Assembly: GCA_019456165.1 (NCBI GenBank)
Contig: VRUJ01000006.1
Coordinates: 3,792 to 67,791 of the forward strand
Reading direction: 5' to 3'
Source of the DNA: Chloroflexota bacterium
GTDB lineage: Bacteria > Chloroflexota > Anaerolineae > Anaerolineales > UBA11579
DNA: 64,000 nucleotides
Part shown: piece after piece, positions 1-63,144 of the stretch
Numbering within the stretch: the stretch's first letter is position 1
Layout: each line of letters starts with the position of its first letter
The notes under the pieces: model-generated
What the model was told of the DNA's origin: nothing
Database searches by the model: none
Seen by the model: only the letters and a program-made list of their open reading frames with translations
Program-made: the position numbers and the translations under genes

Positions 1-330
1 AAGATCAGTTGTCTATTTTCATTCCCACGCGGGAGCATGGGAACGAGGGAAGTCATCTCATCATGTCATTCCGAGCGCATTGTGCGAGGAATCCCTGAGA
101 AGCCAGCCTTCCCCCTCAAAATTCCAACCAAATAACCCACTTTCACCTCTACCCCCACGCCTCTAAAACCTCAGCTTCTTTCTCGCTCGAAATGACGTGA
201 TTTTCTCGTGCCAACGCTCCTGCGTGGGCATGCATTGAAGATCAGTTGTCTATTTTCATTCCCACGCGGGAGCATGGGAACGAGGGAAGTCATCTCATCA
301 TGTCATTCCGAGCGTTTTGGGCGAGGAATC
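1..330. repeat. Tandem duplication (unit ~236 bp; bases 1-78 are identical to 238-315) carrying REP-like hairpins: type B 'ttcccacgcgggagcatgggaa' at ~20-45 and ~258-283; type A 'cgtgccaacgctcctgcgtgggcatgc' at ~210-236
   Basis: Direct comparison shows 1-78 equals 238-315 exactly. The hairpins are palindromic (cccacgc-N4-gcgtggg) and belong to the same family that flanks the RAYT gene at 1840-2810. Confidence 0.8.
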
Positions 331-387
331 CCTGAGAAGACAAAGTAGAGACACACTCCGCCACCTTTCCCCCCACAACATCAACAA

Positions 388-680
388 TTATACCGACTTG
401 ACCCCCTGCCTCCACGCCTCTAAATCCTCAGCTTCTTTCTCTCGCTTTAACCCGGCTTGCCACTCATGCTCATCTGGCCGCGTGCCTGCCCAGGCCAATG
501 TGTCGCGGATTGTGGCTGCCAGGGGGCGGAAGGTGAGTCTCGCGGCGATAGCTTTGCCGCAATTCACCTGCATCAGCCCCACAGATTCTTTCTCATACAC
601 TCAGACGGGCAAATCGCTCCATTCCTCGAGGCTCTGCTCGATGAAAAACTGCGCTTCCACTCGGGTGAGAGTCCCGTCGT
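388..680 (-). pseudogene. Truncated, nonsense-mutated 3' fragment of a paralog of the NmrA-like epimerase gene found at 2860-3855
   Basis: The minus-strand translation reads ...TLTRVEAQFFIEQSLEEWSDLPV*VYEKESVGLMQVNCGKAIAARL...TRPDEHEWQAGLKREKEAEDLEAWRQG. It aligns to the C-terminus of ORF 2860..3855 (TLTWVEAQFLLDQGLEDWSDLPVWVHEQESVGVMQVECSKAIAAGL...). There is an in-frame TGA where the intact copy has TGG (Trp). No 5' part exists because the band-7 gene ends at 681. The downstream non-coding flank is also duplicated (compare 360-470 with 2840-2940). Confidence 0.8.
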
Positions 681-1613
681 TTACGCGGATTTCTTTTTGC
701 CTGACCCCGTTCCGGCGGAAGCAGAAGCGATCTGCTGGCCCATGAGACTATTGGAAGGGTAGACGATGATCATTGAGCTTTCCTCTTTGGACATATCGAG
801 AAGCGCCTGGATCTGTCGTAATTCCAGCGAGCCGTCCTGGGCGGTCAAAATTTCTGTTGCATCAGCTAGCGCGGTTGCCACTGCCACTTCAGCATCTGCC
901 TGGATCTGTTTGGCCCTGGCAGATCGTTCAGCACGGGCGATGACTGCCAGTTCCTCGATCAGTGCCGGTGGTGTGCCGACATCGGTGATCCGCACAGCCC
1001 GAACATTGATGCCGTAATCTTTAGCTGCCGCGTCAATCCCGAGTTTCAAGTCGGACGCGATCCTGCTGGTCTCACTCAGCAGAGGTTTCAGATCGTTACC
1101 ACCGATGGTGCTTTTCAGCGCTTCCATTGAGACCCATTCCGTCGTTTTCCAGTAGTCCTGGACATCGATAGCAGCTTTTTCGGGGTCTTCGACCTCCAAC
1201 TCGACGGCAGCAGTGACATCGACGGGGATGTTATCGCGGGTGAGCGTCTTGGTCGCTTTGACTTCATAGGTGGTGATGCGGACATCCAGGATGCGGGCAA
1301 CTGAGAAGATGAATGGGGGGATGATGAAGAGGCCAGGACCTCTGGCGCCGACAGACTTACCGAGACGGAGGAGGACCAGCCGCTCCCATTGAGGGAGGAT
1401 GAAGAACATCTTGGCGATGGTATTTGCCACCCAGAAGATGGCAAAGAACTTGACCAAGCCGGTGAGAAGGACCGGCACATTGTCCTCGGGAGCGCCCGTT
1501 TCCCAGATCACATTAAAATCGGGCAAGGCGAGCCAGAGCCACAGCGGCAAAGCGATAACCAGCCGGATCGTATTGCGGATAAAACTTTGAACAGGATTCC
1601 TTTGAATGCGCAT
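681..1613 (-). CDS. SPFH/band-7 (stomatin/prohibitin-like) membrane protein
   Basis: An N-terminal TM segment is followed by an SPFH-domain-like sequence and a C-terminal coiled-coil segment (...RAERSARAKQIQADAEVA...). The start is probably the internal Met (MRIQRN) preceded by aaggag. The longest ORF extends to 1643. Confidence 0.75.
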   Translation of the reverse strand: MRIQRNPVQSFIRNTIRLVIALPLWLWLALPDFNVIWETGAPEDNVPVLLTGLVKFFAIFWVANTIAKMFFILPQWERLVLLRLGKSVGARGPGLFIIPPFIFSVARILDVRITTYEVKATKTLTRDNIPVDVTAAVELEVEDPEKAAIDVQDYWKTTEWVSMEALKSTIGGNDLKPLLSETSRIASDLKLGIDAAAKDYGINVRAVRITDVGTPPALIEELAVIARAERSARAKQIQADAEVAVATALADATEILTAQDGSLELRQIQALLDMSKEESSMIIVYPSNSLMGQQIASASAGTGSGKKKSA

Positions 1614-1839
1614 TTCTTTTTCTCCTTTATATGATGTGAACATATGACAGTTATCCGTATTAGCATGAACTCTGACAACTTATAGTAACCTTAATTCTAG
1701 TGCTTATGTGGAAATTGTATACACAGAAAATCTGGGGATTTGGGAGATCGGTATTTTGGTGTGTTTGAAATGAACCACTCTAAACCCTTTTACTTGTTCA
1801 AGTTATTTAGTTTTCGATCCTTATTCAGACGTAGAGATG

Positions 1840-2001
1840 ATCTCAGGAATCGTGCCCACGCTCCTGCGTGGGCATGCAAACGACATCACCTTTTTCGTTC
1901 CCACGCTGGAGCTTGGGAACAAGGATGGAAAATCCGGATTTCCGGATTCGAAAAATCCAAGGTTTCTCTCGTGCACACGCTCTTGCGTGGGCATGCCAAA
2001 A
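1840..2001. repeat. REP-like hairpin cluster: A 'cgtgcccacgctcctgcgtgggcatgc', B 'cgttcccacgctggagcttgggaac', A 'cgtgcacacgctcttgcgtgggcatgc'
   Basis: Three palindromic units lie immediately 3' of the RAYT gene. They share a consensus with the units at 1-330 and 2640-2810. Confidence 0.8.
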
Positions 2002-2535
2002 TCACCAATTTTGCTCCACATCCAACAAGCCAGGTAATCCTGCATAATTAGCCGCGCTGGAATATACCCATTGAACTGGCTCGTCCACCAAACCGCGCTT
2101 AACTGGATTATAGTGAATGTACTCAATCTTTTGTCTCATCATCGCCTTGTTTTGAAGTGCCTGTGGGTGAGAACCTTCCTGCCAGACTTGGAATTGCCTA
2201 TCTTTTTTATGCGGAGCTTTGGCTTGGGCTAACTGCTCCAGCCACTTTTTTTCTTTCTTCTCTTTTAGGGTATCAATGATTCTGCGTGCAGTGAAAGATT
2301 TAAAGTTTGCAATTTCTTTGGATAAGTTTACAGAGGCTGCGACCAAATGCAAATGGGTATCCATAAATACGTATGCATAAATGGTCAGCCGATTGTGTTT
2401 TTGCATAAAACGCAAAGAAGCATATAGGATATCTATTAAATTGGGGTCTTTAAACAATGGGAGCCAATTAACAAGTGTACAGGTGAGAAAGTGAGGAGAG
2501 AAATTTTCATAAACTCGGTATCGGCTGCGGGGCAT
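2002..2535 (-). mobile_element. REP-associated tyrosine transposase (RAYT; IS200/IS605-like Y1 HUH transposase)
   Basis: The 177-aa product carries an HUH motif (FMDTHLHLV) and a C-terminal Y-containing motif (YIHYNPVKRGLV) typical of TnpA-REP/Y1 transposases. The gene is flanked on both sides by REP-like palindromes. Confidence 0.8.
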
Positions 2536-2639
2536 GTGATTATTATAGTTTGTTTGACGTTTTACAGACCCGAGTGGGAGGCTGGGGGCGAGGTCAAGAA
2601 TTCCATTCTATGTTCCTGAATAGGCAATTTCACTATTTT

Positions 2640-2810
2640 CGTTCCCACGCAGGAGCGTGGAAACTAGGGAAGTGATTATGGGGAGATTGTATACACAGAA
2701 AATCTGGGGAATTGGGAGAACCTTATTCTCTCGTGCCCACTCTCCTGCGTGGGTACGCCACAGATCACCTGTTTTCGATCCCACGCGGGTGCATAGGATT
2801 GAGGAAGATG
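2640..2810. repeat. REP-like hairpin cluster 5' of RAYT: B 'cgttcccacgcaggagcgtggaaac', A 'cgtgcccactctcctgcgtgggtacgc', B-like 'cgatcccacgcgggtgcataggattgag'. Also holds a second copy of the 'attgtatacacagaaaatctgggga(t/a)ttgggaga' segment seen at 1715-1755
   Basis: The same palindrome family is found on the other flank, and the ~40-bp segment at 1715-1755 is directly duplicated at 2688-2725. Confidence 0.75.
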
Positions 2811-2859
2811 ATTAACCACGCTTCGCCAACCTTTCCCATCAAATTTCCAAACTAATCGC

Positions 2860-3855
2860 CTACTTTGCCCTTCCTCTCCGCGCCTTTAAAACCTCAGCTT
2901 CTTTCTGTCGAGTTAACCCGGCTTGCCACTCATAGTCGTCTGACCGCGTATCTGCCCAGGCCGACGTATCGCGGATGGTGTCTGCCAATGGGCAGAAAGA
3001 GAGTCCAGCGGCGATGGCCTTGCTGCATTCTACCTGCATCACTCCCACCGACTCTTGCTCATGAACCCAGACCGGCAGATCGCTCCAATCCTCCAGACCT
3101 TGATCGAGAAGGAATTGCGCTTCCACCCAGGTGAGGGTTGCTTCGCTGCCGGTAACCTTTAGGCTGGTCTCCAGCAGTTCTCCCATACTCAGCCGGTTTT
3201 TAGGCCCGGTGGTGTTGTAGATACCCGTGTGTTTATCTGCAACCATGCGCAGCGTCCATTCGGCCAGGTCGCGGGCATCGATGAATTGCACAGGGGTTTT
3301 CGGGTCATCAGGGGCCAACGTCTCGCCACTCTGGGCTATGCGCTGGGGCCAATATGTGAAGCGATCGGTATGGTCGTGGGGGCCGACGATCAAGCCAGGC
3401 CGGACTATCAACGCTCGTCCTGGTATCGCCGCCTCAACGGCTTGCTCGCATAGAACTTTCAAGGGTCCGTAAGTCTCCTCGGTAATTTCTTCAATGCTTT
3501 CATCTTTCATTCTTCCCAGGGGAGCGTCCTCGCGCATGCCGACCTGGCTGAAGTCTGCAAATACCGAGATAGAGGAAATAAAGACATAATGCTCGACTGC
3601 GGAGGCCAAAAGCTCTGCCGAGGCTTTAACCAAGCGCGGCACATAACCGCAGGTGTCGATCACCGCGTCCCAACTGCCGCCCTCTAGCGCTTGCATTCCT
3701 CCATCCCGGTCACCCTGCAAATGCTCTAGTTGGGGGTATAAATCCGGGTTTGTCTGCCCCCGATTGAAGAGGGTTACTTCGTGGCCCCTGGAAAGTGCGG
3801 CATCCACAAGGTGGCGGCCAACAAAGCGTGTTCCGCCCAGGATCAATAATTTCAT
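2860..3855 (-). CDS. NAD(P)-binding NmrA-like/SDR-family epimerase-dehydratase-type protein
   Basis: N-terminal Rossmann motif MKLLILGGTRFVGRHLV. The 331-aa length is typical of NmrA-like proteins. Confidence 0.7.
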   Translation of the reverse strand: MKLLILGGTRFVGRHLVDAALSRGHEVTLFNRGQTNPDLYPQLEHLQGDRDGGMQALEGGSWDAVIDTCGYVPRLVKASAELLASAVEHYVFISSISVFADFSQVGMREDAPLGRMKDESIEEITEETYGPLKVLCEQAVEAAIPGRALIVRPGLIVGPHDHTDRFTYWPQRIAQSGETLAPDDPKTPVQFIDARDLAEWTLRMVADKHTGIYNTTGPKNRLSMGELLETSLKVTGSEATLTWVEAQFLLDQGLEDWSDLPVWVHEQESVGVMQVECSKAIAAGLSFCPLADTIRDTSAWADTRSDDYEWQAGLTRQKEAEVLKARRGRAK

Positions 3856-3908
3856 AGGATTGTCTCCTCATCATTGAGTAGCTTATTTTACGATTAAATC
3901 TTCCGGGT

Positions 3909-4619
3909 TCAAAAAACAATCTGTACAAGATAATCAGATTTAACCAACCAGTATGTCAAAAAGAATACAACGCCATTATTCAACGCGTGAAAAATTACTG
4001 AAGGCCATATCGATTTGCTTCTCTGGTAGAGGAAGGCATAGATTAATCCAATACCAAAGATAGGTATTAATGTGACCAATTCCATATGCACCAAGGCAAA
4101 AAAGGCCGCGCTGATCATAGCAGCTTTTTGCCAGCCATAGCGCTGACGCATTCCGGCGAATAAAAATCCCCTGAAAAAAATCTCCTCCACGAATGGACCC
4201 ACCAGGATGCCGCCAACAATTAACAACCAGGGAGAGTCTAAACCTATTAAGGGAAGCATATAGTTTTTTGGGGGGGACACTTCTAAGAAAGACATAATGA
4301 TTGTGTAAAAGAAGTAACAGATGTTAAACAATAAAACCAATCCACACCCCAATCCAAGTGTACTCCCACTAAAAGCCCGCACACCCAATTCTGTCCAACT
4401 CACATTGTATCTCCGGATGACCAGCCACCACAAAGGGAATAATAGTAACAAATTTCCGAAAATGTTAAATATTGAGGGCCTTAATCCCAGCTCAAGGTAA
4501 TTATTCAGGTACCCAACTTCATAGCCAATTAGCATCCATGCAATCAGGGCAAGGATACCAAGCCATACATCCCAGTGCGTCCATGGAACTTTGTTTATTT
4601 CACCTGATTCTGTTTCCAT
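3909..4619 (-). CDS. CPBP-family (CAAX protease/Abi) intramembrane metalloprotease
   Basis: Multi-TM protein with EEIFFRGF and HALNN motifs, the conserved EExxxR and HxxxN motifs of this family. Confidence 0.75.
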   Translation of the reverse strand: METESGEINKVPWTHWDVWLGILALIAWMLIGYEVGYLNNYLELGLRPSIFNIFGNLLLLFPLWWLVIRRYNVSWTELGVRAFSGSTLGLGCGLVLLFNICYFFYTIIMSFLEVSPPKNYMLPLIGLDSPWLLIVGGILVGPFVEEIFFRGFLFAGMRQRYGWQKAAMISAAFFALVHMELVTLIPIFGIGLIYAFLYQRSKSIWPSVIFHALNNGVVFFLTYWLVKSDYLVQIVF

Positions 4620-4852
4620 AACTTTCCTTTCCCATACATCTTAGTGAGCTTTATGTTAGCTGCGTCATTCTAGCATAGAGTATGTTGTCAAACAAGATAA
4701 AAAACCTTTACCTTCATTTATCGCAAGTTTGTGGTTAGAAACGTCAAGTAAGAGATGGCGATTGAACCACTACATAATAGTAACAATCCTTCCTTTTAGG
4801 AGTGAAATAGTCCTTCCCTTTTCAACGCCAAGGGATCCTGGAGAAAGAAATC

Positions 4853-7800
4853 ATGCTAACGAAATTAAACTTAACTATGCGAGCCAGGCTAATTGCAGCC
4901 TTCTTCTTGGTCGCCCTAATCCCTATGAGCCTGCTGGCATTCTTAAACAGCCGCTCCACCCGCCAAGCTCTGATAGACGATGCTAACCAGGCTCTTTTCG
5001 CGGTGGCGTCACAAACAGCGGCCAGTTTGGATGTCTTTATAAACTCCAACATCGAAGCTGTGCGCACAGAGGCACAGTTACCGGCCATTAAAAATTACTT
5101 GAGCTTACCTAACGAGCAGTTAGCCGGCAGCCCCGAAGAGCTGGAAGTCTTGGCCTTGCTGCAAACGTTGAGCACCAAAGACAACAACATTACTTCCTAC
5201 GCGCTGCTGGACAGCCGGGGGTTTGATCTGGTGGATACTTCGCTCAACGAGATCGGGATAGATAAATCTGACCGTGAATACTACACACACTTCCTGGATA
5301 ACCCAGATACACGAAAAACCTACGTCTCCCCGGTGCAGTTCTACGGGGGTTTTGGAGAGGCATCCCTATATTTCAGCAGTCCAATTTACGCAACTGGCGG
5401 CGAGTTCATGGGCGTATTACGAGCGCGTTACAGCGCTGAGGTGCTGCAAGACCTGGTGGCAGAGAAGAACAACCTTGCCGGACAAGGTTCCTTTGGTGTC
5501 TTGTTCGACGAACATCACATCCACCTGGCGCACGGCGTGGAACCACAGGTCAATTATCTTCCCATCATAACCTTCGACGACGCTCTGGTAGCTGAACTGC
5601 GCGACAACCAGCGCCTGCCAGATATACTCGATGAAGACCTCTTTATCATGGAGTTGACCAAACTAGAAACCCACTTATCTAATCCGGAGGAAGAGCGCTT
5701 CTTCGAGGCTGAAGACGTGGCCACTGGCGAGTTGGTTAACCAGGTTGCCATCGCAGCTATGGAAAACCAGCCCTGGCTGGTAACATTCTTCCAACCGCAA
5801 GAGATCTTCCTCGCACCGGTGCAGGCGCAAACCAACAACACGCTGCTGCTGCTAGGCCTCTTTGCAGTAGCTGCGGTTTTGATCGCCTTCGCAATTGGGC
5901 AGCTCCTGGGCCGGCCAATCATAAAATTGACCGGTACAGTTTCACAGTTCGCAGAAGGTAACCTGGAAGCTCGCTCTGAGATCGAATCTGAAGACGAGAT
6001 CGGTGTGCTGGCAAAGAGCTTCAACTCCATGGCCGAGCAGTTAGGCAATTCGCTGACCGGTTTGGAAAACCGCCAGGTGGAATTGGAGAGCGAAATTTCC
6101 GAACGCCAACGCGCTGAAGGCGCGCTGCGCAAAAGCGAGGAGCGCTACCGTTCCATCTCAGACCTGACCTCAGATTACATTTACAGTGTTGATGTCGCTC
6201 CGGATGGGGATCTGCAGCTCAATTGGTCCACGGAAGCGTTCTCACGCTTCACTGGCTATACGGCCGAAGAGTTAGCCGAGCGCGGCGGTTGGACCAGCTT
6301 GGTGCACCCAGAAGACCGGGAAGATTTCGATGAAAAACGAAACAGGCTTCTCGAATCTGGTGATCAAGATGCTGTCGAATATCGCATTATCACCAAAGAC
6401 GGAAAAATTCGTTGGCTGCGTGACTTTAGGCGTTCAACTTTGGACGAAGAAGGCAAAAGCGTGGTCCGCCTGCTTGGGGCTGCCCAAGATATCACCGCAC
6501 AGAAGAAAGCAGACCAAGAACTCAAGGGCGCAAAAGACAGCGCTGAGGCTGCAAACCGGGCTAAAAGCGCATTCCTGGCAAACATGAGCCACGAACTGCG
6601 CACACCTCTCAACGCAATTTTAGGTTTTACCCAACTGATGGCCCGCGATGGGGGCTTAAACCCTCAACAGAGAGAGCACCTGGGAATCGTCAGCCGCGGC
6701 GGTGAGCACTTGCTCACTCTGATCAACGACATTCTTGAAATGTCCAAGATCGAAGCCGGACGTACACAGCTGAACAACAACAGCTTTGACTTCTACCGCC
6801 TGCTAGACGATATTGAAGACATGCTGCAATTACGAACCAAAGAAGAGGGCTTGTTAATGCTCTTCGAACGCACCCCTGAAGTTCCGCAGTACATTCGTGC
6901 AGACGAAAGAAAATTACGCCAAGTATTGATAAACCTGCTGAGTAACGCCATCAAGTTCACAAAAGAAGGCGGCATATCACTACGCGTGAGATTCGACAAC
7001 GGAGAAAAACGTCTCTATTTTGAGATCGAAGACTCCGGTCCCGGAATCGCACAAGATGAGATCGACTTCCTGTTTGAAGCCTTCGTGCAGACCTCCAGCG
7101 GAGAGAGTACCTTAGAAGGCACCGGCCTGGGCCTACCCATAAGCCAGCAATTCGTGCAATTGATGGGAAGCAAGATTACCGTCAGCACAAAACTTGGTCA
7201 AGGCTCAATCTTCAAGTTTGACATGCTAATGGAAGCTGCAGATGCATCAAAGGTGGCTGCCAAAGAAACCCCCCGCCAGGTGATTGGTTTGGAACCTGGC
7301 CAACCTCGCTATAGAATCCTGATCGTTGAGGACCGCCTAGAGAACCGCAAGCTGTTGATCGAGCTGCTTGAGCCGCTGGGATTTGAACTTCGCGAGGCTG
7401 TAAACGGCCAGGAAGCGATAGAAATGTGGAGGAGTTGGGAGCCCCACCTGATTTGGATGGACATGCGCATGCCTGTCATGGACGGCTATGAGGCCACCCG
7501 GCAGATCAGATCTACTACCAACGGCCCTGAAACAGTTATCATCGCCCTGACGGCCAGCGCTTTCGAGGAAAACCGGGCTATGAGCCTGGAGGCCGGAGCC
7601 TACGACTTTGTACGCAAACCGTTCCGCAGCGGGGAGATCTTCGATAAGATCACAAAGCACCTGGGAGTTCGCTTCATATACGATGATGAGCCCGTCGAAA
7701 CAGAACGTAAAAAGCCAATTGAAACGAGCCAATTAACACCCGCCGCTCTGGCCAGTTTGCCATCCGACTGGGTCGCCGAGCTGCATAGAGCCGCTTCCCG

Positions 7801-7942
7801 GGCTGATAGTGAGCTTATCCTGGAGCTAGTAGAACGAATTCGCCTTCAGGAACCAGACCTGGCGGGTGCGCTGGTCAAGATGGTTGACAACTTCCGCTTT
7901 GAAGTTATTATGGATATTACCTCTGCACAAATCGGAGTATAA
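4853..7942 (+). CDS. Hybrid sensor histidine kinase (periplasmic sensor domain, HAMP, PAS, HisKA, HATPase, REC, C-terminal extension)
   Basis: Two TM segments bracket a ~300-aa extracytoplasmic domain. H-box MSHELRTPLNAILGF, G-boxes GTGLGL, and a receiver domain (ILIVEDRLENRKLL...WMDMRMPVMDGYEA). Confidence 0.9.
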   Translation: MLTKLNLTMRARLIAAFFLVALIPMSLLAFLNSRSTRQALIDDANQALFAVASQTAASLDVFINSNIEAVRTEAQLPAIKNYLSLPNEQLAGSPEELEVLALLQTLSTKDNNITSYALLDSRGFDLVDTSLNEIGIDKSDREYYTHFLDNPDTRKTYVSPVQFYGGFGEASLYFSSPIYATGGEFMGVLRARYSAEVLQDLVAEKNNLAGQGSFGVLFDEHHIHLAHGVEPQVNYLPIITFDDALVAELRDNQRLPDILDEDLFIMELTKLETHLSNPEEERFFEAEDVATGELVNQVAIAAMENQPWLVTFFQPQEIFLAPVQAQTNNTLLLLGLFAVAAVLIAFAIGQLLGRPIIKLTGTVSQFAEGNLEARSEIESEDEIGVLAKSFNSMAEQLGNSLTGLENRQVELESEISERQRAEGALRKSEERYRSISDLTSDYIYSVDVAPDGDLQLNWSTEAFSRFTGYTAEELAERGGWTSLVHPEDREDFDEKRNRLLESGDQDAVEYRIITKDGKIRWLRDFRRSTLDEEGKSVVRLLGAAQDITAQKKADQELKGAKDSAEAANRAKSAFLANMSHELRTPLNAILGFTQLMARDGGLNPQQREHLGIVSRGGEHLLTLINDILEMSKIEAGRTQLNNNSFDFYRLLDDIEDMLQLRTKEEGLLMLFERTPEVPQYIRADERKLRQVLINLLSNAIKFTKEGGISLRVRFDNGEKRLYFEIEDSGPGIAQDEIDFLFEAFVQTSSGESTLEGTGLGLPISQQFVQLMGSKITVSTKLGQGSIFKFDMLMEAADASKVAAKETPRQVIGLEPGQPRYRILIVEDRLENRKLLIELLEPLGFELREAVNGQEAIEMWRSWEPHLIWMDMRMPVMDGYEATRQIRSTTNGPETVIIALTASAFEENRAMSLEAGAYDFVRKPFRSGEIFDKITKHLGVRFIYDDEPVETERKKPIETSQLTPAALASLPSDWVAELHRAASRADSELILELVERIRLQEPDLAGALVKMVDNFRFEVIMDITSAQIGV

Positions 7943-7944
7943 GC

Positions 7945-9285
7945 ATGGGCAACCAACCAAGTGAAACGCCAAGAGGGGACATCCTAATCGTTGACGATAC
8001 CCCAGATAACCTGCGTCTGCTATCTACCTTTCTCACGGACCAAGGTTTCAAAGTCAGGTCTGTGATCAGCGGTCCTATGGCGCTAACTGCCACGCGCTCA
8101 TCACCACCAGACCTGATATTGCTAGATATCACAATGCCGGAGATGAACGGCTATGAAGTAAGCCAACGGCTTAAGCAAGACGAGCAGACCCGCGATATCC
8201 CCATTATCTTCATCAGCGCGCTGAACGAGACGCTGGATAAAGTCAAAGCCTTTTCTGTCGGAGGGGTTGATTTCATTACCAAGCCCTTCCAATTCGAGGA
8301 GGTTTTGGCGCGCGTCGAAACACACCTTAGTTTACGCAAGCTGCAAACACAGCTTCAGACTCTTAACGATGAGCTAGAGGGACGCGTCGAGGCACGCACT
8401 GCAGAACTGGTTGAATTGAACAGCGCTTACGAGCGCTTCGTACCGCGCGAATTCCTGAGCTACCTGGATAAAAAGAGCATTACGGACGTCAAGCTGGGTG
8501 ATCAGATGCAGCAAGACATGACCATCATGTTCTCAGATTTGCGCTCTTTCACCACCCTCTCGGAAAATATGACCCCTCAGGAAAATTTTAATTTCCTCAA
8601 CTCCTACCTGAGCAAGATCAGCCCCGTTATCCGGGAGAACGATGGTTTTATAGATACTTATATCGGGGACGCGGTCATGTCGCTGTTCCCTAAAAGCCCG
8701 GATGACGCTTTGCAAGCTGCAATTGCCATGAGCCACGAATTAACAGACTATAACGCCTTACGCGAGGAAATGGGCCACGAGCCTATCAGCGTGGGCACCG
8801 GCTTGCACACAGGCAGTTTGATGCTTGGCATTATCGGTGGAGAGCAGCGCATGCAAGGCACCGTGATCTCCGATGCCGTCAACCTGGCCTCGCGCATTGA
8901 GCGTCTGACCAAAAAGTACGGCGTCTCAGTGATCGCTTGCGAACGCACTCTGGCGAGCCTGGAAGACACTTCGATATACAATTACCGTTTTATTGACCGC
9001 GTGCAGGTTGAGGGTAAAACTGAGCCGGTGACCGTTTTTGAGGTCTTCGATTGCGACACGGATGAGATGGTCGAGCTTAAACTTAGGACCAAAGATGATT
9101 TCGAAGAAGGGCTGCACTTATATTACGACAAGAAATTTGCAGAAGCCAGCGTAAAATTCAACCGTGTTTTGGAACTAAATCCCGAAGATATAGCCGCACG
9201 CATCTACCTGGAGCGCGCCGCACATTTTATGGTGCACGGCGTGCCATCGGATTGGGTAGGTGTGGAGGCTCTGACTGAGAAGTAG
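7945..9285 (+). CDS. Response regulator receiver fused to a class III adenylate/guanylate cyclase domain (plus C-terminal TPR-like tail)
   Basis: REC motifs (ILIVDDTPDNLRLL, LLDITMPEMNGYEV). Cyclase motifs MFSDLRSFTTLSE, YIGDAVMSLF, GLHTGSLMLGIIG. The start lies 2 nt after the kinase stop, so translational coupling is likely. Confidence 0.85.
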   Translation: MGNQPSETPRGDILIVDDTPDNLRLLSTFLTDQGFKVRSVISGPMALTATRSSPPDLILLDITMPEMNGYEVSQRLKQDEQTRDIPIIFISALNETLDKVKAFSVGGVDFITKPFQFEEVLARVETHLSLRKLQTQLQTLNDELEGRVEARTAELVELNSAYERFVPREFLSYLDKKSITDVKLGDQMQQDMTIMFSDLRSFTTLSENMTPQENFNFLNSYLSKISPVIRENDGFIDTYIGDAVMSLFPKSPDDALQAAIAMSHELTDYNALREEMGHEPISVGTGLHTGSLMLGIIGGEQRMQGTVISDAVNLASRIERLTKKYGVSVIACERTLASLEDTSIYNYRFIDRVQVEGKTEPVTVFEVFDCDTDEMVELKLRTKDDFEEGLHLYYDKKFAEASVKFNRVLELNPEDIAARIYLERAAHFMVHGVPSDWVGVEALTEK

Positions 9286-9608
9286 TATAGCAAGCTATCA
9301 AAACTTAATAGCTCCCCTTTGGAATAATAATATATATCGGTTATTCCTTTGCCAGACCAAACCCCACATTAGTTTTGTTTTCCAAGGCAAAATACTATTA
9401 GCGAAGAGTATCAATGAATATCAGCATTTTACCAATTACAGCTACCAATAAAGGTTACCTCAAAACAGTACTTAAGTACTATTTACCCATGACAAGTTGG
9501 AGTATAATAAGGAATAACTACAAGGAAAAACTCTGGACATTTTCGCGAGGTTTTTCCTTGAGAAAAAACACGACTTAATCAGGATTTCCCATCTTGTCCC
9601 CTAATCGG

Positions 9609-9702
9609 CGGGCAGGGAGGGATTTGAACCCTCGGAGGATGTTGTTGGCACCCTCACTTGATTATAAGTCAAGCGCTATAAACCGAACTCAGCCACCTGC
9701 CC
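9609..9702 (-). tRNA. tRNA-like gene, class II (long variable arm ~23 nt) with anticodon loop CUUAUAA (apparent anticodon UAU); isotype unresolved
   Basis: The minus-strand fold gives a 7-bp acceptor (GGGCAGG/CCUGCCC), a D arm (GCUG...UAGC with GG in the loop), an anticodon stem (CUUGA/UCAAG), a 7-bp variable-arm stem (GAGGGUG/CAUCCUC) and a canonical T arm (GAGGG-UUCAAAU-CCCUC). CCA is not encoded. Confidence 0.6.
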
Positions 9703-9860
9703 ACCATGAGATTCTATCACGGTGGGATATTGAGTGCAAGCACAAATATTCTATTAAAGCTGGGTAAAAACAAATATTACAAAACAAGCAAGAAAAAATT
9801 TGAGAGTATTGATTAAATAGAACATATGTGCTATAATAGGGAAGGGATGGAAGATATATT

Positions 9861-10481
9861 ATGAGAAAAATATCTAAAGAAACACTACAAAAAGTCATTC
9901 TATTGTATTTTGTTGGTAAGTTTCGAGAAGGTGTCTTCACTAATTATCGCTTTCAGAAAGTGTTGTATTTTGCGTTAAAAGATTTGGAAGAAAACCCGTT
10001 CAGATACCAGCATACTACATATGGTCAATATAGCTTTGATGCTAAAGTAATTCTTGAATTATTAAACGAATTGGGATTTGTAAGTAGTTCGGAATTGCCA
10101 AATGTTGGTGATGCGGGAGAGATGTGGGCAGTTTTTGATAAAGATGCTGTTGAGCATTACCGCAAAATATTACTTAGTTATTCACAAGAATTGGTTAATG
10201 CAATTGATACCAGCATCAAAGAAATTGGATACCTATCGAGTCGCGAATTAGTTACATTGGCACATGATGACCCAGGTTTACAATCAACGCCTTTTGGTGA
10301 TACCATTCTTGAGGAGACTTTACTCGAAAAAGTAAAGGTTGATTTGTCAGAAGATGAATGTGAAGATTTGGATCTAATTTTCAACCTTGGTTTCAATAGA
10401 GGGATGGAAAAATTAATAGCTGGAATTGCAGAAACTGATTTTGATTTGGGGAGGGTGGAAAAAACTGCCTCGATCCTATAG
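9861..10481 (+). CDS. Panacea (DUF4065/SocA/GepA-like) domain protein; putative antitoxin
   Basis: The N-terminal region (RFQKVLYFALKDL...FRYQHTTYGQYSFDAKVILELL) matches the KLQKLLYFaq...AW.yGPV..vY signature of DUF4065 proteins as I recall it. Lies in a low-GC region next to a tRNA. Confidence 0.5.
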   Translation: MRKISKETLQKVILLYFVGKFREGVFTNYRFQKVLYFALKDLEENPFRYQHTTYGQYSFDAKVILELLNELGFVSSSELPNVGDAGEMWAVFDKDAVEHYRKILLSYSQELVNAIDTSIKEIGYLSSRELVTLAHDDPGLQSTPFGDTILEETLLEKVKVDLSEDECEDLDLIFNLGFNRGMEKLIAGIAETDFDLGRVEKTASIL

Positions 10482-10851
10482 CATACTTATACATCTGTCT
10501 TTCCAAGAACAAGCAAGGATAGTTGCAAGTAAGAACAAAAGAATACCAAAGCAACTACAAACATCCTTGGGGCAGATTGAAACCAATCCATCATATGGAA
10601 AAATGATGGATGATGTATTAAAGCAAAGCTTAAGGGGAGTTATCCGACGCGTTCATGTAGGCGGAAGAAAAGGACATCGTCTGATTTACTTGCATCCTCA
10701 TAATTCGAATTTTGTTATCCCTGTGTTCCTGTCCCCTACTCAAAAATCATCATTTGAATACGAAAGTGTTGATTGGGAAAAATTGTGTAATGCAATTTAT
10801 CAAGATTACACTAACAAAAATTACAAATCATTTATGAATTGGAATTCATAA
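10426..10851 (+). CDS. RelE/ParE-superfamily-like toxin (true start uncertain; may begin at internal Met ~10600)
   Basis: The C-terminal segment LRGVIRRVHVGGRKGHRLIYLHPHNSNFVIPVFLSPTQK resembles the RelE/ParE core (L.G...R.RvGdyRiIY.....v.il.i.hR). It overlaps or abuts the Panacea gene, consistent with a toxin-antitoxin-like arrangement. Confidence 0.45.
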   Translation: MQKLILIWGGWKKLPRSYSILIHLSFQEQARIVASKNKRIPKQLQTSLGQIETNPSYGKMMDDVLKQSLRGVIRRVHVGGRKGHRLIYLHPHNSNFVIPVFLSPTQKSSFEYESVDWEKLCNAIYQDYTNKNYKSFMNWNS

Positions 10852-11025
10852 AAATCCTTCTCTTCTGAGGGCTTCACAATTTTCCGTCCTCTTTCAATCC
10901 GTTCCATCTAAAGCCATCCATATCCATATTCGCCTCAGTCACTCCCAGTTTTCGAAAATATTCTAATCCCCCTAGATTTATTTCCCCAAAGGATATATTT
11001 TTACCGCCTCTCCCTCCTCCCAAAC

Positions 11026-11088
11026 AAAAAAGCCTTGCGAAAGTATTAGCGACCATAGGCCGCCACCCTCGCAAGGCAAATAATTGAC
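11026..11088. repeat. Hairpin element copy 1: 'aaaaaagccttgcgaaagtattagcgaccataggccgccaccctcgcaaggcaaataattgac'
   Basis: Inverted arms gccttgcga/tcgcaaggc. A second, more perfect copy sits at 12140-12202 in the same orientation. The two bracket the methyltransferase gene. Confidence 0.7.
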
Positions 11089-11269
11089 TAGTTTCTCGAG
11101 TTTCGCCAAAAAATAATCCCAAAATGGCGGATTTTGAGTGATATTATAGAATAAAGACATTTGATCATTAAAGAATTCTATTTTTCATGTAAAAGAACTC
11201 TTAGGAACATTTTATCCAGAGAACATCTCGGATAATACCCCGTTGAGCGCCCAAAGGGAATAATGAATT

Positions 11270-12094
11270 ATGACAAACGAAAATAAAATGGTTGGATCTA
11301 CAGCAGACGGTTTGGTTGTCATTAGATCAGGACAACAGGCCAAAAAGTTAGGTGTTGAAGATCCCTTTGCAGAATGGTTTATTACTGAAGAGGGACATAA
11401 TCTTCTTCAATTAGCTAAAAAAATAGATAACGTATACGAAGAGTACAATCTAGCTCGTTACAAATTCACAACTTCAAGATTACGTGTGCTCTCAAAAAAT
11501 TACCAACAAATGCTCTTTTTGGGATCGGGTTTTGATTGTCGTGCTGTTTGGTTAGATGTTTTTAAAAATGGTAAAACAGCCGTATTTGAAATCGATGAAT
11601 CTACCAAACTTCAACAAAAGCAAGAACAATTAACTTTACATAAAATATCTCTGCCTGAATGGAACCATTATATCCCAAGCAACCTTGAAAACAATAAAAT
11701 CCCTGAGTTATTATTTACGGAAGGTTTGAGACATAATCAGCCTCTACTCGTTCTTGCCGAAGGTCTGTTCTTCTTTGTGCCAACAGATGTTGTAAAAAAG
11801 GTATTAAATCCCAAATGGCTTGGCCTTGCAAGTGGTAGCCTGGTAATTTTTGATTGTTGGTCAGATGACCGAGTTATTGGATTGAATGCTCGGCTTCTAG
11901 AAGGTATAGGGCGCAAATTATTTTATCCATTTCCTTATAGTACTGAAACAGATAAATTGAAGAAAGATTTAATTGATTTGGGATATAGCAAAGTCATGGT
12001 AACACCACTTTCAAAGATAGTAGAAGAATATTACAAACATGTTATTTTAGATGAATACAAATCAGGTTGGCTTGTAATTGAAGCTACGGTTTAG
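11270..12094 (+). CDS. Class I SAM-dependent methyltransferase, LCM/TcmP (PF04072-like) family
   Basis: Motif MLFLGSGFDCRAVWLD (compare the VLxLGAGlDtRafRL signature of leucine-carboxyl-MTase-like O-methyltransferases). ~36% GC, unlike the ~57% GC bulk. Confidence 0.6.
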   Translation: MTNENKMVGSTADGLVVIRSGQQAKKLGVEDPFAEWFITEEGHNLLQLAKKIDNVYEEYNLARYKFTTSRLRVLSKNYQQMLFLGSGFDCRAVWLDVFKNGKTAVFEIDESTKLQQKQEQLTLHKISLPEWNHYIPSNLENNKIPELLFTEGLRHNQPLLVLAEGLFFFVPTDVVKKVLNPKWLGLASGSLVIFDCWSDDRVIGLNARLLEGIGRKLFYPFPYSTETDKLKKDLIDLGYSKVMVTPLSKIVEEYYKHVILDEYKSGWLVIEATV

Positions 12095-12139
12095 CAAACA
12101 AAGCGGGTTGAGCGCCCAACAAAGCGTACACCCTATCCC

Positions 12140-12202
12140 AACAAAAAACGCCTTGCGAAGGTATCAGCGGTCTTTGACTGCCACCTTCGCAAGGCGAATA
12201 AA
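12140..12202. repeat. Hairpin element copy 2: 'aaaaaacgccttgcgaaggtatcagcggtctttgactgccaccttcgcaaggcgaataaattac' (perfect 14-bp arms)
   Basis: cgccttgcgaaggt ... accttcgcaaggcg. Sits 45 bp after the MTase stop. May also act as a terminator, but has no T-tract. Confidence 0.7.
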
Positions 12203-12219
12203 TTACTTGTTGGTTATTG

Positions 12220-12714
12220 TTAAGTAACCCAGGGCAAACTCAGGACTGCATCCACGCTCCAGGCGCCCCAGGCGCCCATGGCCAGCAAAACAACCTGCGG
12301 AACGATCATATTCCAGTTCTGGCCTTGCTCGCATTGGTATGCCGGGTTGACCGAAATATCCTTGGTGGGTTTGACCCCCGCCAAAGTAATGTAGTTCAGG
12401 TTCAAGAAGATCGCCACTATCAACGCTATGGGGGTCAAGAAGCCAAATACCAGACCGATGCCGACGGCCAACTCACCGGCCAAAACCAAATAGGGGAACC
12501 AGGCCCCATTGGGTTCGACCAGCTTCTTGATCGCTCGGCCAAAGGCAGGCACGGGATGGTTATCGGCCAGGTCGAGAGTCCAGCTCACCATCTGCCCGCT
12601 AACGAACTTCTTTAACGGCTTGTGTGCGAAACTCTTGATCCACCACAAGCCGAGGCCAATGCGTAGTATTGCCAACCACTGGTCCACTTCTAAAAATCCA
12701 AATATATCTGTCAT
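12220..12714 (-). CDS. DoxX-family membrane protein
   Basis: 4-TM small protein. The start is taken at the internal Met preceded by ggaggg. The longest ORF extends to 12843. Confidence 0.6.
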   Translation of the reverse strand: MTDIFGFLEVDQWLAILRIGLGLWWIKSFAHKPLKKFVSGQMVSWTLDLADNHPVPAFGRAIKKLVEPNGAWFPYLVLAGELAVGIGLVFGFLTPIALIVAIFLNLNYITLAGVKPTKDISVNPAYQCEQGQNWNMIVPQVVLLAMGAWGAWSVDAVLSLPWVT

Positions 12715-21893: not shown

Positions 21894-22640
21894 ATGAGAC
21901 AGCCGCGAAAACAAATCCAACTATTGATTTGTGGAATTACCGTGATAATCGCCATCTTAGCTTGTTCGCTCCCCGAAAGCCCGGAGGAGACGCCCACTGC
22001 CGTGGCAGAAACCTTGAGCGCAACACCAACAAATCCAACAGCAACCCCCACACCAGAGGCTGAAGCCCCAACCGCGATAGCCACAGATGCGCCTCTCCCC
22101 ACAAACACACCTGTCATTTCTACTGCAACTCAACCCCCTCCGCCCGATGGAGTCAGTTTGAACTGTGATGGCACATACCAGCGCTTTCGGCTCGCCGACC
22201 AGGGCATCAATGGTAAGACTGTCTCGATAGATAGTTGGGACGGCAATGCCTGGGTAAATGTATGGAACGTTTCCAGCGGAGACCCAAATCTACAACAATA
22301 CACCATCGAAACTGGTCATTACCAGTTTGGCGAATGTCAAAGACTTGTCATCGTTCCCACGCGCTACTCAAATCCACAGGTATTTGTCGAGCTGGATATT
22401 TATGTTTGGAATGGCGCGGGGATGTCTTTGGTTTATCACCACGAAGGAGCGTATGGCGAATGGAGCAAAGCCGGGCTGGCGATCACCTTCGAATGGGCCA
22501 GCACGTTGGGCTGGGTGAACGGTGGGCCGCTTGGCCCCTGCGAATACACCACTTTGCAGCATACCTGGGATGGGACGGCTTTCAACCAAACCGGTTCAGC
22601 AGTAAACCCGGTACCCAACTGCACTCCAAGCGCTCCCTAA
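21894..22640 (+). CDS. Secreted/lipoprotein-like hypothetical protein with Pro/Thr-rich linker
   Basis: Signal peptide with a Cys (ILACS), a PT-rich low-complexity stretch, then a ~170-aa globular domain. Confidence 0.55.
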   Translation: MRQPRKQIQLLICGITVIIAILACSLPESPEETPTAVAETLSATPTNPTATPTPEAEAPTAIATDAPLPTNTPVISTATQPPPPDGVSLNCDGTYQRFRLADQGINGKTVSIDSWDGNAWVNVWNVSSGDPNLQQYTIETGHYQFGECQRLVIVPTRYSNPQVFVELDIYVWNGAGMSLVYHHEGAYGEWSKAGLAITFEWASTLGWVNGGPLGPCEYTTLQHTWDGTAFNQTGSAVNPVPNCTPSAP

Positions 22641-62493: not shown

Positions 62494-63144
62494 GTGAAGT
62501 GGAGCAAAGCATCTAAGATGTCCATTGAAACTAAAATACGAGAAGTCGCAATCGATTTTTCAGAACGTCTAAAAGAAAGAATAGAAAAACGTGTCGAAGA
62601 AATGAGAGATGACGACACATCTCATTTTCTTATCTATCGCGTATTAGGTATTACTGATAAAGAAGGAGATCTTATTGATGTTTACCAGAATAAAGGGCGG
62701 TTTCTTTACCGGTATGCAGGGGGGTTTCTTGAAAAAGTAGCAAAACTCTGTTTCCAAGAGAAATTCCCTGAAGCTGACTCGATTCGGATTCCTAACACAG
62801 AGAGTCGACGGCCAAAAACCTTTGAAGTTGATTGCCTGATCGGAAAAGACGCAATTGAAATCAAATGGCGAGATGCTACGACCGATGGCGACCACATCAC
62901 AAAAGAGCACACGCGTATCAGAACCGTTGCGGAGGCAGGTTATAAGCCGATTCGCGTAATGTTTTACTATCCGAATCGCGACCAAGCAATCCGAATTCAA
63001 AAGACGTTGGAAACTCTTTACACCGGAGTTGGAGGAGAATATCATTATGGTAATGACGCTTGGCAATACATAACACAAAGATCCGGCATTGATTTAAAAG
63101 CCATCCTTTATAAACTGGCTGATGAAAATACAAATACATCATGA
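62494..63144 (+). CDS. Putative type II restriction endonuclease (PD-ExK)
   Basis: 216 aa with FEVDCLIGKDAIEIKWRD (D...EIK). Its stop overlaps the ATG of the downstream DNA methyltransferase (ATGA). ~35% GC. Confidence 0.55.
   Translation: MKWSKASKMSIETKIREVAIDFSERLKERIEKRVEEMRDDDTSHFLIYRVLGITDKEGDLIDVYQNKGRFLYRYAGGFLEKVAKLCFQEKFPEADSIRIPNTESRRPKTFEVDCLIGKDAIEIKWRDATTDGDHITKEHTRIRTVAEAGYKPIRVMFYYPNRDQAIRIQKTLETLYTGVGGEYHYGNDAWQYITQRSGIDLKAILYKLADENTNTS

What the first reader, a model, noticed from the sequence alone, without database searches (positions are those of the whole stretch)
1..2810. RAYT transposase embedded in REP-like palindromes, with REP-associated tandem duplication and a decaying gene fragment
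The 177-aa ORF 2002..2535 has the HUH (THLHLV) and YxxxNPVxxGLV motifs of REP-associated tyrosine transposases. It is flanked on both sides by two alternating palindrome types (A: cgtgcccacgc-tcct-gcgtgggcatgc; B: ttcccacgc-ggga-gcatgggaa), which is the REP/BIME-like organisation. The same repeats occur at 1-330, where a ~236-bp unit is duplicated in tandem (1-78 identical to 238-315). A 3'-truncated, nonsense-bearing copy of the neighbouring epimerase gene sits at 388-680, along with the duplicated downstream flank of that gene. The RAYT/REP system therefore appears to be remodelling this locus actively.
Basis: partly seen in the sequence, partly recalled or inferred. Interest (0 to 1): 0.6.

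Follow-up and report, generated by a model that had tools for sequence, protein, structure and literature searches.

The report
RAYT transposase with REP hairpin cluster
This is an ordinary "REPtron": a single intact REP-associated tyrosine transposase gene in a Chloroflexota metagenome genome, surrounded by ten copies of its cognate hairpin repeat and by old, repeat-bordered duplications of neighbouring DNA. It is a known kind of element that had only been annotated as "transposase".

Summary
ORF 2002-2535(-) is an intact RAYT: it scores 101 bits against NCBIfam REP_Tyr_transpos (cut-off 80), has invariant H61/H63 and Y139, and its predicted fold matches E. coli TnpA-REP. A covariance model finds exactly nine REP hairpins in the window, all within 16-2805. 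A tenth lies just beyond an assembly gap, and there are none in the other ~73 kb of the scaffold.

Corrections:
- Types "A" and "B" are one REP family in opposite orientation, differing by a compensated stem pair. They form inverted doublets like E. coli Y/Z REPs.
- The epimerase fragment is 5'-truncated, not 3'-truncated. With dN/dS 0.21 and dS 0.76, it is a relic of a long-diverged paralogue, not a recent copy.
- The "tandem duplication" is a mosaic: a 128-nt REP doublet that is 100% identical, next to flanks only ~75% identical. It abuts a scaffold gap, so its arrangement and copy number are unverified.

The same REP flanks RAYT homologues across phyla. It also occurs as RAYT-less, mostly intergenic doublets in other genomes and metagenomes. 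Genome-wide dispersal in the source organism could not be tested. "Active remodelling" is not shown. Verdict: a new member of a known kind, of low-to-moderate interest.

The parts
2002..2535 (-). RAYT / TnpA-REP gene: 177 aa, intact, with HUH at H61/H63 and catalytic Tyr139 in a YxxxN motif.
   Evidence: NCBIfam NF047646 scores 101.2 bits (cut-off 80), while IS200 scores only 17.7 (cut-off 55). It aligns to E. coli TnpA-REP 4ER8. The catalytic residues are invariant in 18 homologues. The AlphaFold model (pLDDT 83.7) matches 4ER8 with rmsd 3.1 A over 152 columns. dN/dS is 0.10-0.20 against relatives.
1966..1999 (+). REP, alpha subtype (G-C closing pair), 3 nt downstream of the RAYT stop codon. 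It forms one end of the conserved core REPtron.
   Evidence: CM R1 scores 42 bits. The ssDNA hairpin folds at -10.1 kcal/mol, z -5.1. It is conserved with the RAYT in L123 (window 1964-2537 at 89.6% identity).
2636..2669 (-). REP, beta subtype (T-A closing pair), ~100 nt upstream of the RAYT start and inverted relative to the downstream REP. It forms the other end of the core REPtron.
   Evidence: CM R1 scores 44 bits. The upstream region 2525-2667 is conserved with L123 at 76.5%. The layout of a forward REP upstream and a reverse REP downstream recurs in several phyla.
1847..1925 (.). Inverted REP doublet (alpha 1847-1880 on +, beta 1892-1925 on -), REPIN-like.
   Evidence: CM scores 46.3 and 43.1 bits. 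The fold gives -22.3 kcal/mol, z -4.5.
2728..2805 (.). Inverted REP doublet (alpha 2728-2761 on +, beta 2772-2805 on -), lying downstream of the intact epimerase gene.
   Evidence: CM scores 42.9 and 36.3 bits. The fold gives z -2.2.
203..286 (.). Inverted REP doublet (alpha 203-236 on +, beta 253-286 on -). It is part of a 128-nt block (187-314) that is identical to the copy spanning the assembly gap and window 1-77.
   Evidence: CM scores 47.1 and 49.7 bits. It folds as one long hairpin of -21.9 kcal/mol, z -4.4. Identity is shown.
16..49 (-). REP beta, the second half of the first doublet. Its alpha partner lies beyond the window start at L001 12620-12653.
   Evidence: CM scores 49.7 bits and 47.1 bits for the partner in L001. 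The 100-N gap lies between them.
102..187 (-). Module copy 1: the epimerase downstream flank plus about the last 47 nt of an epimerase ORF, broken off where it meets the next REP.
   Evidence: Repeat family D3, alignment A1, and 76-77% identity to the other two copies.
359..681 (-). Module copy 2: the downstream flank (359-387) plus a 5'-truncated epimerase relic (388-681; 97 codons plus its stop, one internal nonsense codon). It abuts the stop codon of the SPFH gene.
   Evidence: dN/dS is 0.21 and dS 0.76 against the intact gene. The intact neighbour is its closest homologue (69% aa, against 56% or less for any database protein).
2825..3855 (-). Module copy 3: the downstream flank (2825-2859) plus the intact SDR/epimerase gene (2860-3855).
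   Evidence: Pfam Epimerase 8e-14; repeat families D1 and D3.
1699..1755 (+). A 57-nt direct repeat (copy 1) upstream of the SPFH gene. Together with a REP doublet it brackets the core REPtron.
   Evidence: Repeat family D6, 88% identical to 2671-2727. It is absent from the relatives L123 and L126.
2671..2727 (+). The 57-nt direct repeat (copy 2), lying between REP beta 2636-2669 and REP alpha 2728-2761.
   Evidence: Repeat family D6 and alignment A2.

Best explanation
The locus is a REPtron. It holds one intact gene for a REP-associated tyrosine transposase (a Y1 HUH single-strand DNA nuclease/ligase). This gene sits between inverted copies of its cognate REP hairpin, and more REPs lie nearby as inverted doublets (REPIN/BIME-like).

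**Inferred mechanism, by homology to E. coli TnpA-REP and IS608 TnpA.** The protein binds the 11-bp-stem, 4-nt-loop hairpin when the DNA is single-stranded. It cuts next to the hairpin foot using Tyr139, with the metal held by His61/His63, and it rejoins the ends. This lets REP doublets be copied or moved.

**Local repeats.** The duplications around the gene are REP-bordered segmental duplications:
- three nested copies of the module "epimerase 3' end + flank + REP doublet";
- a 57-nt repeat plus a REP doublet on each side of the core REPtron.

Most of these are old (73-88% identical). They are equally well explained by host recombination between REPs. The one sign of a recent event is the 128-nt REP doublet that is identical in two adjacent modules. 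That could be a REPIN copy, a gene conversion, or an assembly effect.

**Shown:** the identity of the protein, the hairpins and their covariation, the layout, and the age pattern of the repeats.
**Inferred:** catalysis on these REPs, and any role of the RAYT in the rearrangements.
For: **Protein.**
- NCBIfam REP_Tyr_transpos scores 101 bits (cut-off 80), against 17.7 for IS200.
- The HUH motif and Tyr139 align to E. coli TnpA-REP and are invariant in the family.
- The predicted fold is closest in rmsd to 4ER8.
- The gene is under purifying selection.

**REP hairpins.**
- Nine copies are in the window and one is beyond the gap, all within 2.9 kb.
- In 52 REPs, 93.9% of stem cells pair, with 34 double-sided changes against 8.4 in shuffles.
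- At the unconstrained closing pair, all 8 non-A partners are Watson-Crick compensated.

**Association of RAYT and REP.**
- RAYT homologues of 89%, 73% and 62% identity, in different gene neighbourhoods, are flanked by the same REP.
- So are homologues of 47-56% identity in Stutzerimonas, Balneatrix and Planctomycetota.

**Dispersal of REPs elsewhere.**
- 113 of 120 REP-bearing genome blocks lack a RAYT.
- 47 of 52 REP-bearing metagenome stretches lack a RAYT.
- Many of these are mostly intergenic beta+alpha inverted doublets.

**Repeat ages.**

Against: - No REP was found in ~73 kb of the same scaffold outside the cluster. Genome-wide dissemination in this organism is therefore undemonstrated. 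The 95% upper bound is still about 40 copies per Mb.
- The REPs lack the GT[AG]G foot typical of classic REPs. They have a conserved 5' CTCGT instead.
- RAYT relatives of 73-89% identity sit in non-syntenic contexts. This could mean that the unit itself moves.
- No biochemical data exist for this family.
Confidence: 0.85

Rival explanations
1. One reading: the RAYT is currently and actively remodelling this locus, and has itself produced the tandem unit and the gene fragment.
For: The 128-nt REP doublet is 100% identical in two adjacent modules, while the other doublets in the locus are only 68-70% identical to it. The RAYT is intact and under selection. Every duplication junction lies at or next to a REP.
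Against: - The duplicated flanks are 73-77% identical, the D6 repeat is 88% identical, and the gene relic has dS 0.76 with dN/dS 0.21. These copies are therefore old.
- Identity confined to the REP doublet fits gene conversion or RecA-dependent exchange just as well.
- The identical block straddles an assembly gap.
Confidence: 0.2
2. The apparent tandem repeat at 1-342 is wholly or partly an assembly artefact. Two separate loci or strain variants that share an identical REP doublet were joined, or the copy number is wrong.
For: - The source scaffold has a 100-N gap inside the first doublet, and it overlaps window 1-22.
- The independent Logan contig stops at window 285. That is exactly where a k=31 unitig must break if 238-314 has two different continuations.
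- The identical block (128 nt) is about as long as a short read.
Against: - The unique segment 78-186 is joined to REP sequence on both sides within one contiguous contig. The graph therefore needs two doublets either on one molecule or at another locus.
- Tandem reiteration of REP dimers together with flanking DNA is a documented feature of REP clusters.
Confidence: 0.25
3. The unit beta-REP / RAYT / alpha-REP (window 1966-2669) is itself an autonomous IS200/IS605-like insertion sequence that transposes as a whole.
For: - The ~700-nt unit is the only part shared with relatives, and it lies in different gene neighbourhoods at 89% and 73% protein identity.
- It is bracketed by direct repeats consisting of a REP doublet plus 57 nt.
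- The family is spread patchily over many phyla.
Against: - IS200 profiles score below threshold (17.7 against 55; Pfam 21.9 against 23).
- The motif is YxxxN, not YxxxQ.
- There is no tnpB, and only one copy in 76 kb.
- RAYT-less REP doublets are the majority elsewhere.
- The family is almost absent from plasmids (5 of 72,556 records).
Confidence: 0.1
4. The hairpins are host regulatory elements (terminators or mRNA stabilisers) that only happen to lie near a transposase gene.
For: They sit downstream of genes and between genes. G-U-compatible variants are common: 20 G-U at pair 6/29 and 14 U-G at pair 13/22. This would suit an RNA role.
Against: - The same hairpin accompanies the same RAYT family in the same upstream-forward/downstream-reverse layout across phyla.
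- No T-run follows the hairpin on either strand.
- There is no Rfam match.
Confidence: 0.05

Closest known systems
E. coli K-12 REPtron (tnpA-REP/yafM flanked by Y and Z2 REPs; PDB 4ER8)
   Same: - A single Y1 HUH transposase gene lies between REP pairs in inverted orientation, made of two REP subtypes.
- It has HUH plus a catalytic Tyr in a YxxxN motif.
- The fold is the same, with rmsd 3.1 A.
   Different: - Protein identity is only ~20%, and the phmmer E-value is 0.005.
- The hairpin here has a perfect 11-bp stem and a 4-nt loop, with no GTAG foot.
- REP abundance in the host genome is unknown.
REPIN-RAYT systems of Pseudomonas fluorescens SBW25 (Bertels & Rainey 2011; RAYT groups of Bertels et al. 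2017)
   Same: - REPs occur as inverted doublets able to fold into one long hairpin.
- The RAYT is flanked by them.
- RAYT-less doublets are dispersed and intergenic in other genomes.
   Different: - The distribution across many phyla and the low local REP density resemble the paper's Group 1 or Group 4 (about 12-14 flanking-16mer copies; Group 4 is common in Caldilineae) rather than the REPIN-rich Groups 2 and 3.
- Group assignment was not tested, because no reference sequences were available.
Thermomicrobium roseum (Chloroflexota) GTAG-23 REPs (Di Nocera et al. 2013)
   Same: [quoted passage not shown] That matches the clustering seen here.
   Different: Those REPs carry a GTAG tag and sit inside CCGSSCC palindromes. 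The REPs here have neither feature.
IS200/IS605 transposases (IS608, ISDra2 TnpA)
   Same: They share the HUH/Y1 fold and hairpin-guided ssDNA chemistry (Foldseek E about 3e-5).
   Different: - The IS200 profile scores below its cut-off.
- The motif is YxxxN instead of YxxxQ.
- The protein has a longer C-terminal part.
- There is no tnpB, and no multi-copy whole element is seen.

Membership tests
RAYT / TnpA-REP (REP-associated tyrosine transposase) | Match to the curated family profile above its cut-off | tested here: met
   NF047646 REP_Tyr_transpos scores 101.2 bits against a cut-off of 80, covering residues 6-159.
RAYT / TnpA-REP (REP-associated tyrosine transposase) | HUH metal-binding motif and a catalytic tyrosine on the C-terminal helix, in a YxxxN context | tested here: met
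   H61-L-H63 and Y139-IHY-N143 are present. Y139 aligns with the first Tyr of the DYIYINPVK motif of E. coli 4ER8, chain position 115. H61, H63, Y139, N143 and P144 are invariant in 18 homologues of 56-89% identity.
RAYT / TnpA-REP (REP-associated tyrosine transposase) | HUH/Y1 fold resembling solved TnpA-REP | tested here: met
   The model has pLDDT 83.7 and pTM 0.82. Against 4ER8_A it gives rmsd 3.1 A over 152 columns and TM 0.58/0.62, the best rmsd of all hits.
RAYT / TnpA-REP (REP-associated tyrosine transposase) | Gene flanked by its cognate REP hairpins in inverted orientation (REPtron) | tested here: met
   REP alpha 1966-1999 (+) and REP beta 2636-2669 (-) bracket the gene. The same layout is found in L123, L127, L035, L081, L101 and L063.
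RAYT / TnpA-REP (REP-associated tyrosine transposase) | The same REP is dispersed, away from the gene, in the same genome | tested here: inconclusive
   No REP was found in ~73 kb of the source scaffold outside the 2.9-kb cluster. Dispersal is shown only in other genomes and metagenomes.
RAYT / TnpA-REP (REP-associated tyrosine transposase) | GT[AG]G tetranucleotide at the 5' foot of the REP | tested here: not met
   The Chloroflexota copies have no GTAG beside the stem. The conserved flank is 5' (C/T)CTCGT, of which CGT is part of the stem. REP families without the tag are recognised in the literature.
RAYT / TnpA-REP (REP-associated tyrosine transposase) | Cleaves and rejoins REP ssDNA | not testable with these tools
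   This requires biochemistry.
REPIN / BIME (inverted REP doublets) | Two REPs in inverted orientation separated by a short spacer and able to form one long hairpin | tested here: met
   Three alpha(+)/beta(-) doublets have start-to-start spacings of 44-50 nt. Positions 200-295 fold as a single hairpin of -21.9 kcal/mol, z -4.4. The other two doublets fold as two hairpins or as a weaker long one.
REPIN / BIME (inverted REP doublets) | A population of many similar doublets across the genome | tested here: inconclusive
   In the source genome this has the same limitation as above. Beta+alpha doublets without a RAYT were found on metagenome contigs L129, L148, L160 and L173.
IS200/IS605 insertion sequence | TnpA matching IS200 profiles above their cut-offs, with a YxxxQ motif | tested here: not met
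   NF033573 scores 17.7 against a cut-off of 55, and PF01797 scores 21.9 against 23. The residue four positions after the Tyr is Asn.
IS200/IS605 insertion sequence | Whole element present in multiple copies, often with tnpB | tested here: not met
   There is one copy in the 64-kb window, and tblastn finds no second copy or relic there. The gene calls for the further ~12 kb of the scaffold (L001, L180) list no other Y1_Tnp gene. No tnpB-like ORF is adjacent. Only part of the genome could be examined.

The most novel reading that the evidence does not exclude
This REPtron lineage is not an immobile, domesticated system but is still mobile in cis.
- The 704-nt core (REP-RAYT-REP) entered a REP-bearing intergenic region. 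It is bracketed by direct repeats of a REP doublet plus 57 nt.
- REP-primed copying carried adjacent host DNA along, which would produce the nested series of 996-, 290- and 47-nt copies of the epimerase 3' end.
- The 128-nt doublet was copied very recently.

Combined with the near-invariant hairpin shared by RAYTs of only 42-62% identity in Gammaproteobacteria, Desulfobacterota, Planctomycetota and Chloroflexota, this would describe a horizontally spreading REP-RAYT lineage that transduces flanking sequence.
Probability: 0.12. Interest if true: 0.55.

Novelty: new member of a known kind. Interest (0 to 1): 0.28.

Why it matters
The finding adds a clearly documented REPtron from an uncultured Chloroflexota genome. 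Its cognate REP is an 11-bp stem with a TCCY loop and two strand-specific subtypes related by a compensated pair.

The same hairpin accompanies the same RAYT family across several phyla. This is useful for annotation, because the gene is currently labelled only "transposase" and the gene relic "hypothetical protein". It may also serve as a test case for RAYT-REP specificity.

It does not change what is known about how such systems work.

The practical lesson for genome scans is that REP clusters create assembly breaks and mosaic repeats. These can look like recent duplications when they are not.

Tried and rejected
- **Intact orthologue of the epimerase relic.** The search found only 7 hits and none closer than the neighbouring gene. 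The ancestral locus could not be reconstructed.
- **Close relatives of the host, via the intact epimerase.** The best homologue is only 66% identical. No presence/absence comparison between strains was possible.
- **Genome-wide REP count in the source organism.**
  - Only ~76 kb of the scaffold could be reached.
- **Rfam.** No match was found in 1-4200.
- **Candidate third hairpin.** The sequence gtcattccgagcg...cgaggaatc (65-93 and 302-330) folds no better than shuffled sequence (z -0.3). It occurs only in these two modules, so it was rejected as a structured element.
- **Weak REP candidate.** The member at 2558-2601 (61% identity) is not recognised by the covariance model and was rejected as a REP.
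- **Half-site at 22350.** It has no palindromic partner.
- **Tandem Repeats Finder.** It does not call the 237-nt period, because only ~1.4 diverged copies lie in the window.
- **Literature search for the exact REP sequence.** It returned only unrelated papers. Figures are not searchable, so this does not prove the motif is undescribed.
- **CGTC-tagged REP superfamily.** This was considered because of the CTCGT flank. It was rejected because CGT is paired within the stem, and those REPs are reported to lack a transposase.


Full report
**Source.**
The window comes from a 113-kb metagenome scaffold (ENA ERZ23499938, ZHAO22-1_SAMN11268109 scaffold_70). NCBI holds it as "MAG: Chloroflexi bacterium", with the ORF annotated simply as "transposase". 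The scaffold copy (L001) is identical to the window except that a 100-N gap overlaps window 1-22. An independent Logan assembly of the same run (L002) is identical over window 285-12,535 and ends at 285. The finding therefore touches an assembly break.

**The protein.**
ORF 2002-2535(-) encodes 177 aa.
- It scores 101.2 bits against NCBIfam NF047646 "REP-associated tyrosine transposase" (cut-off 80). It fails the IS200 models: NF033573 scores 17.7 against 55, and Pfam Y1_Tnp scores 21.9 against 23.
- phmmer against PDB sequences finds E. coli TnpA-REP (4ER8). The query's THLHLV lies over the E. coli HUH motif, and the query's EYIHYNPVK lies over DYIYINPVK, so Y139 is the catalytic tyrosine in a YxxxN context.
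- In 18 homologues of 56-89% identity, H61, H63, Y139, N143, P144 and a W118-Q-x-G-x-H123 block are invariant.
- An AlphaFold model (pLDDT 83.7) retrieves only Y1 HUH transposases. 4ER8 is the best superposition, at 3.1 A over 152 columns.
- dN/dS against relatives is 0.10-0.20, so the gene is maintained by selection.
- Homologues are numerous (1,707 hits), typically exactly 177 aa long, and often on short contigs. The family is almost absent from plasmids.

**The palindromes.**
- The core CCCACGC-N4-GCGTGGG occurs nine times in the window where 0.14 is expected, and all nine lie in 24-2797.
- The two subtypes differ mainly by a compensated closing pair, G-C against T-A, and they always sit on opposite strands. 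Alpha is on + at 203, 1847, 1966 and 2728. Beta is on - at 16, 253, 1892, 2636 and 2772.
- Three alpha/beta pairs, 44-50 nt apart, are inverted doublets. One folds as a single long hairpin with z -4.4.
- This is the REPIN/BIME arrangement. It matches the E. coli REPtron, which is built from Y and Z2 REPs in inverted pairs (PMC6006769), and the reported "heterodimers with different stems" (PMC3733652).
- The hairpin is supported by covariation. In 52 REPs from this and related loci, 93.9% of stem cells pair, and there are 34 double-sided changes against 8.4 in shuffles (0 of 500 shuffles reach the observed value). The slid controls collapse to 27-53% paired.
- In 145 genome hits where the closing pair was left free by the search pattern, all eight non-A 3' partners have the Watson-Crick 5' partner.

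**Association with the RAYT, and dispersal.**
- RAYT homologues of 89% (L123), 73% (L126) and 62% (L127, Desulfobulbus) identity lie in unrelated gene neighbourhoods. Each is flanked by the same REP.
- Only window 1964-2667 (REP alpha, RAYT, 5' region, REP beta) is shared with L123. This ~700-nt unit is the core REPtron.
- A scan of GTDB species genomes for the REP core stopped at its 120-block limit. Hits came from Pseudomonas, Vibrio, Planctomycetota, Desulfobacterota, Anaerolineae, Caldilineaceae and others.
- Seven of those blocks hold a RAYT homologue of 42-56% identity. In the full-length cases that could be examined, the layout is a forward REP upstream and a reverse REP downstream.
- A scan of JGI metagenomes for the Chloroflexota-type beta REP gave 52 stretches, 47 of them without a RAYT. 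Many are beta plus inverted-alpha doublets lying between genes.
- The REP family is therefore dispersed and RAYT-linked in general.
- In the source organism the test is weak. A filter-free covariance-model search finds no further copy in the window, and none in another 11.9 kb of the scaffold apart from one REP just beyond the gap. Zero in ~73 kb still allows about 40 copies per Mb.
- Clustered rather than dispersed REPs have a precedent in Chloroflexota, in T. roseum. RAYT groups with few REPs are also described (Groups 1 and 4, with Group 4 common in Caldilineae).

**The duplicated host DNA.**
- The module "epimerase 3' end + downstream flank + REP doublet" occurs three times in the same orientation, carrying 996 nt (the intact gene, 2860-3855), ~290 nt (388-681) and ~47 nt (137-187) of the ORF.
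- The three flanks are equidistant from one another, at 73-77% identity.
- The 290-nt piece is in frame, has no indels and has one TGG->TGA change. It differs from the intact gene mostly at third codon positions: 21/7/33 differences by codon position, dN/dS 0.21, dS 0.76.
- The intact neighbour is its closest relative, at 69% aa against 56% or less for any database protein.
- It is therefore the 5'-truncated relic of a paralogue that was functional for a long time. It is not a recent decaying copy, and it is not 3'-truncated. Its break point coincides with the stop codon of the SPFH gene at 681.
- A second repeat, 57 nt at 88% identity (1699-1755 and 2671-2727), together with a REP doublet, brackets the core REPtron. 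It is absent from the relatives. I cannot say whether this records an insertion or a duplication.

**The "tandem duplication".**
- Units of 237 nt repeat at the window start, but the repeat is a mosaic.
- A 128-nt block (window 187-314, holding the alpha and beta REPs) is identical to the copy made of L001 sequence before the gap plus window 1-77. The following ~110 nt are only ~75% identical and contain a 20-nt indel.
- The other doublets in the locus are 68-70% identical to this block.
- So the modules are old, and only the doublet was homogenised or copied recently. The possible causes are RAYT-mediated copying, gene conversion or recombination.
- The block sits on the scaffold gap. The Logan contig ends exactly where a k=31 unitig must break if 238-314 has two continuations. 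This confirms that the sequence is repeated in the sample but not that the copies are adjacent.
- Tandem reiteration of REP dimers with flanking DNA is a known property of REP clusters.

**Verdict.**
The identification as a RAYT embedded in REPs is correct, and it is now supported by profile, motif, fold, covariation and comparative evidence. The element is a new member of a known kind, a REPtron. The claim of ongoing remodelling is not established. The most that can be said is that REPs mark every duplication junction and that one doublet is suspiciously identical. The cross-phylum constancy of the hairpin and the nested gene-end copies are the only mildly unusual aspects.

Noticed in passing
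L003-L122 (GTDB genome blocks), e.g. L063, L081, L101, L035: An essentially identical REP, CTCGTTCCCAYGCTCCYGCGTGGGAAYG, occurs in Gammaproteobacteria, Desulfobacterota, Planctomycetota, Ignavibacteriota, Calditrichota and Chloroflexota. It sits next to RAYTs that are only 42-62% identical to the one here. In many Proteobacteria and Planctomycetota it is followed 8-9 nt later by GACG, and in Desulfobulbus (L127) that GACG begins a second small palindrome (GACGCTCCGCGTC).
   Followed up: partly
L081 4135-4345 (Balneatrix alpica), L024 4309-5202 (Pseudomonas brassicacearum), L161 1848-2060: REPs of this family form regular tandem arrays in three loci. In L081 at least six copies repeat with a 63-nt period directly downstream of the RAYT gene. 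In L024 five copies repeat with a 218-nt period. In L161 five alpha-type copies repeat with a 49-nt period. In L081 and L024 the flanking sequence recurs from copy to copy, so these look like tandem repeats and not CRISPR arrays.
   Followed up: no
window 1-22 / L001 12514-12613: The ENA scaffold carries exactly 100 N where the window has real sequence for its first 22 bases. The window therefore derives from a slightly different version of the record; NCBI lists 113,388 nt against 113,279 nt in ENA.
   Followed up: partly
window 65-93 and 302-330: A 29-nt segment, GTCATTCCGAGCG..TTG.GCGAGGAATC, is present in the two upstream modules but absent from the module next to the intact epimerase. It looks palindromic but folds no better than shuffled sequence.
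   Followed up: yes
window 9607-9702 (-): ARAGORN calls a 96-nt tRNA-Ile with anticodon TAT. That is unusually long for a tRNA. It lies next to a low-GC stretch (10,001-12,000, GC 0.37, against ~0.49 elsewhere).
   Followed up: no
window ~62,500-64,000 and beyond (L180 10951-17145): Restriction-modification genes are present: an ApaLI-like endonuclease with an N4/N6 methyltransferase, and further on an Eco57I-like N6 methyltransferase.
   Followed up: no
window 1933-1948: A small perfect tandem and palindromic sequence, TCCGGATT x2, lies within aaatccggatttccggattcg in the spacer between REP beta 1892-1925 and REP alpha 1966-1999.
   Followed up: no
window 681-1613 (-): The stop codon of the SPFH/Band-7 gene lies exactly at the break point of the epimerase relic. 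A copy of the 57-nt repeat sits 56-86 nt upstream of its start. The gene may therefore have arrived, or been retained, as part of the same rearrangement.
   Followed up: no
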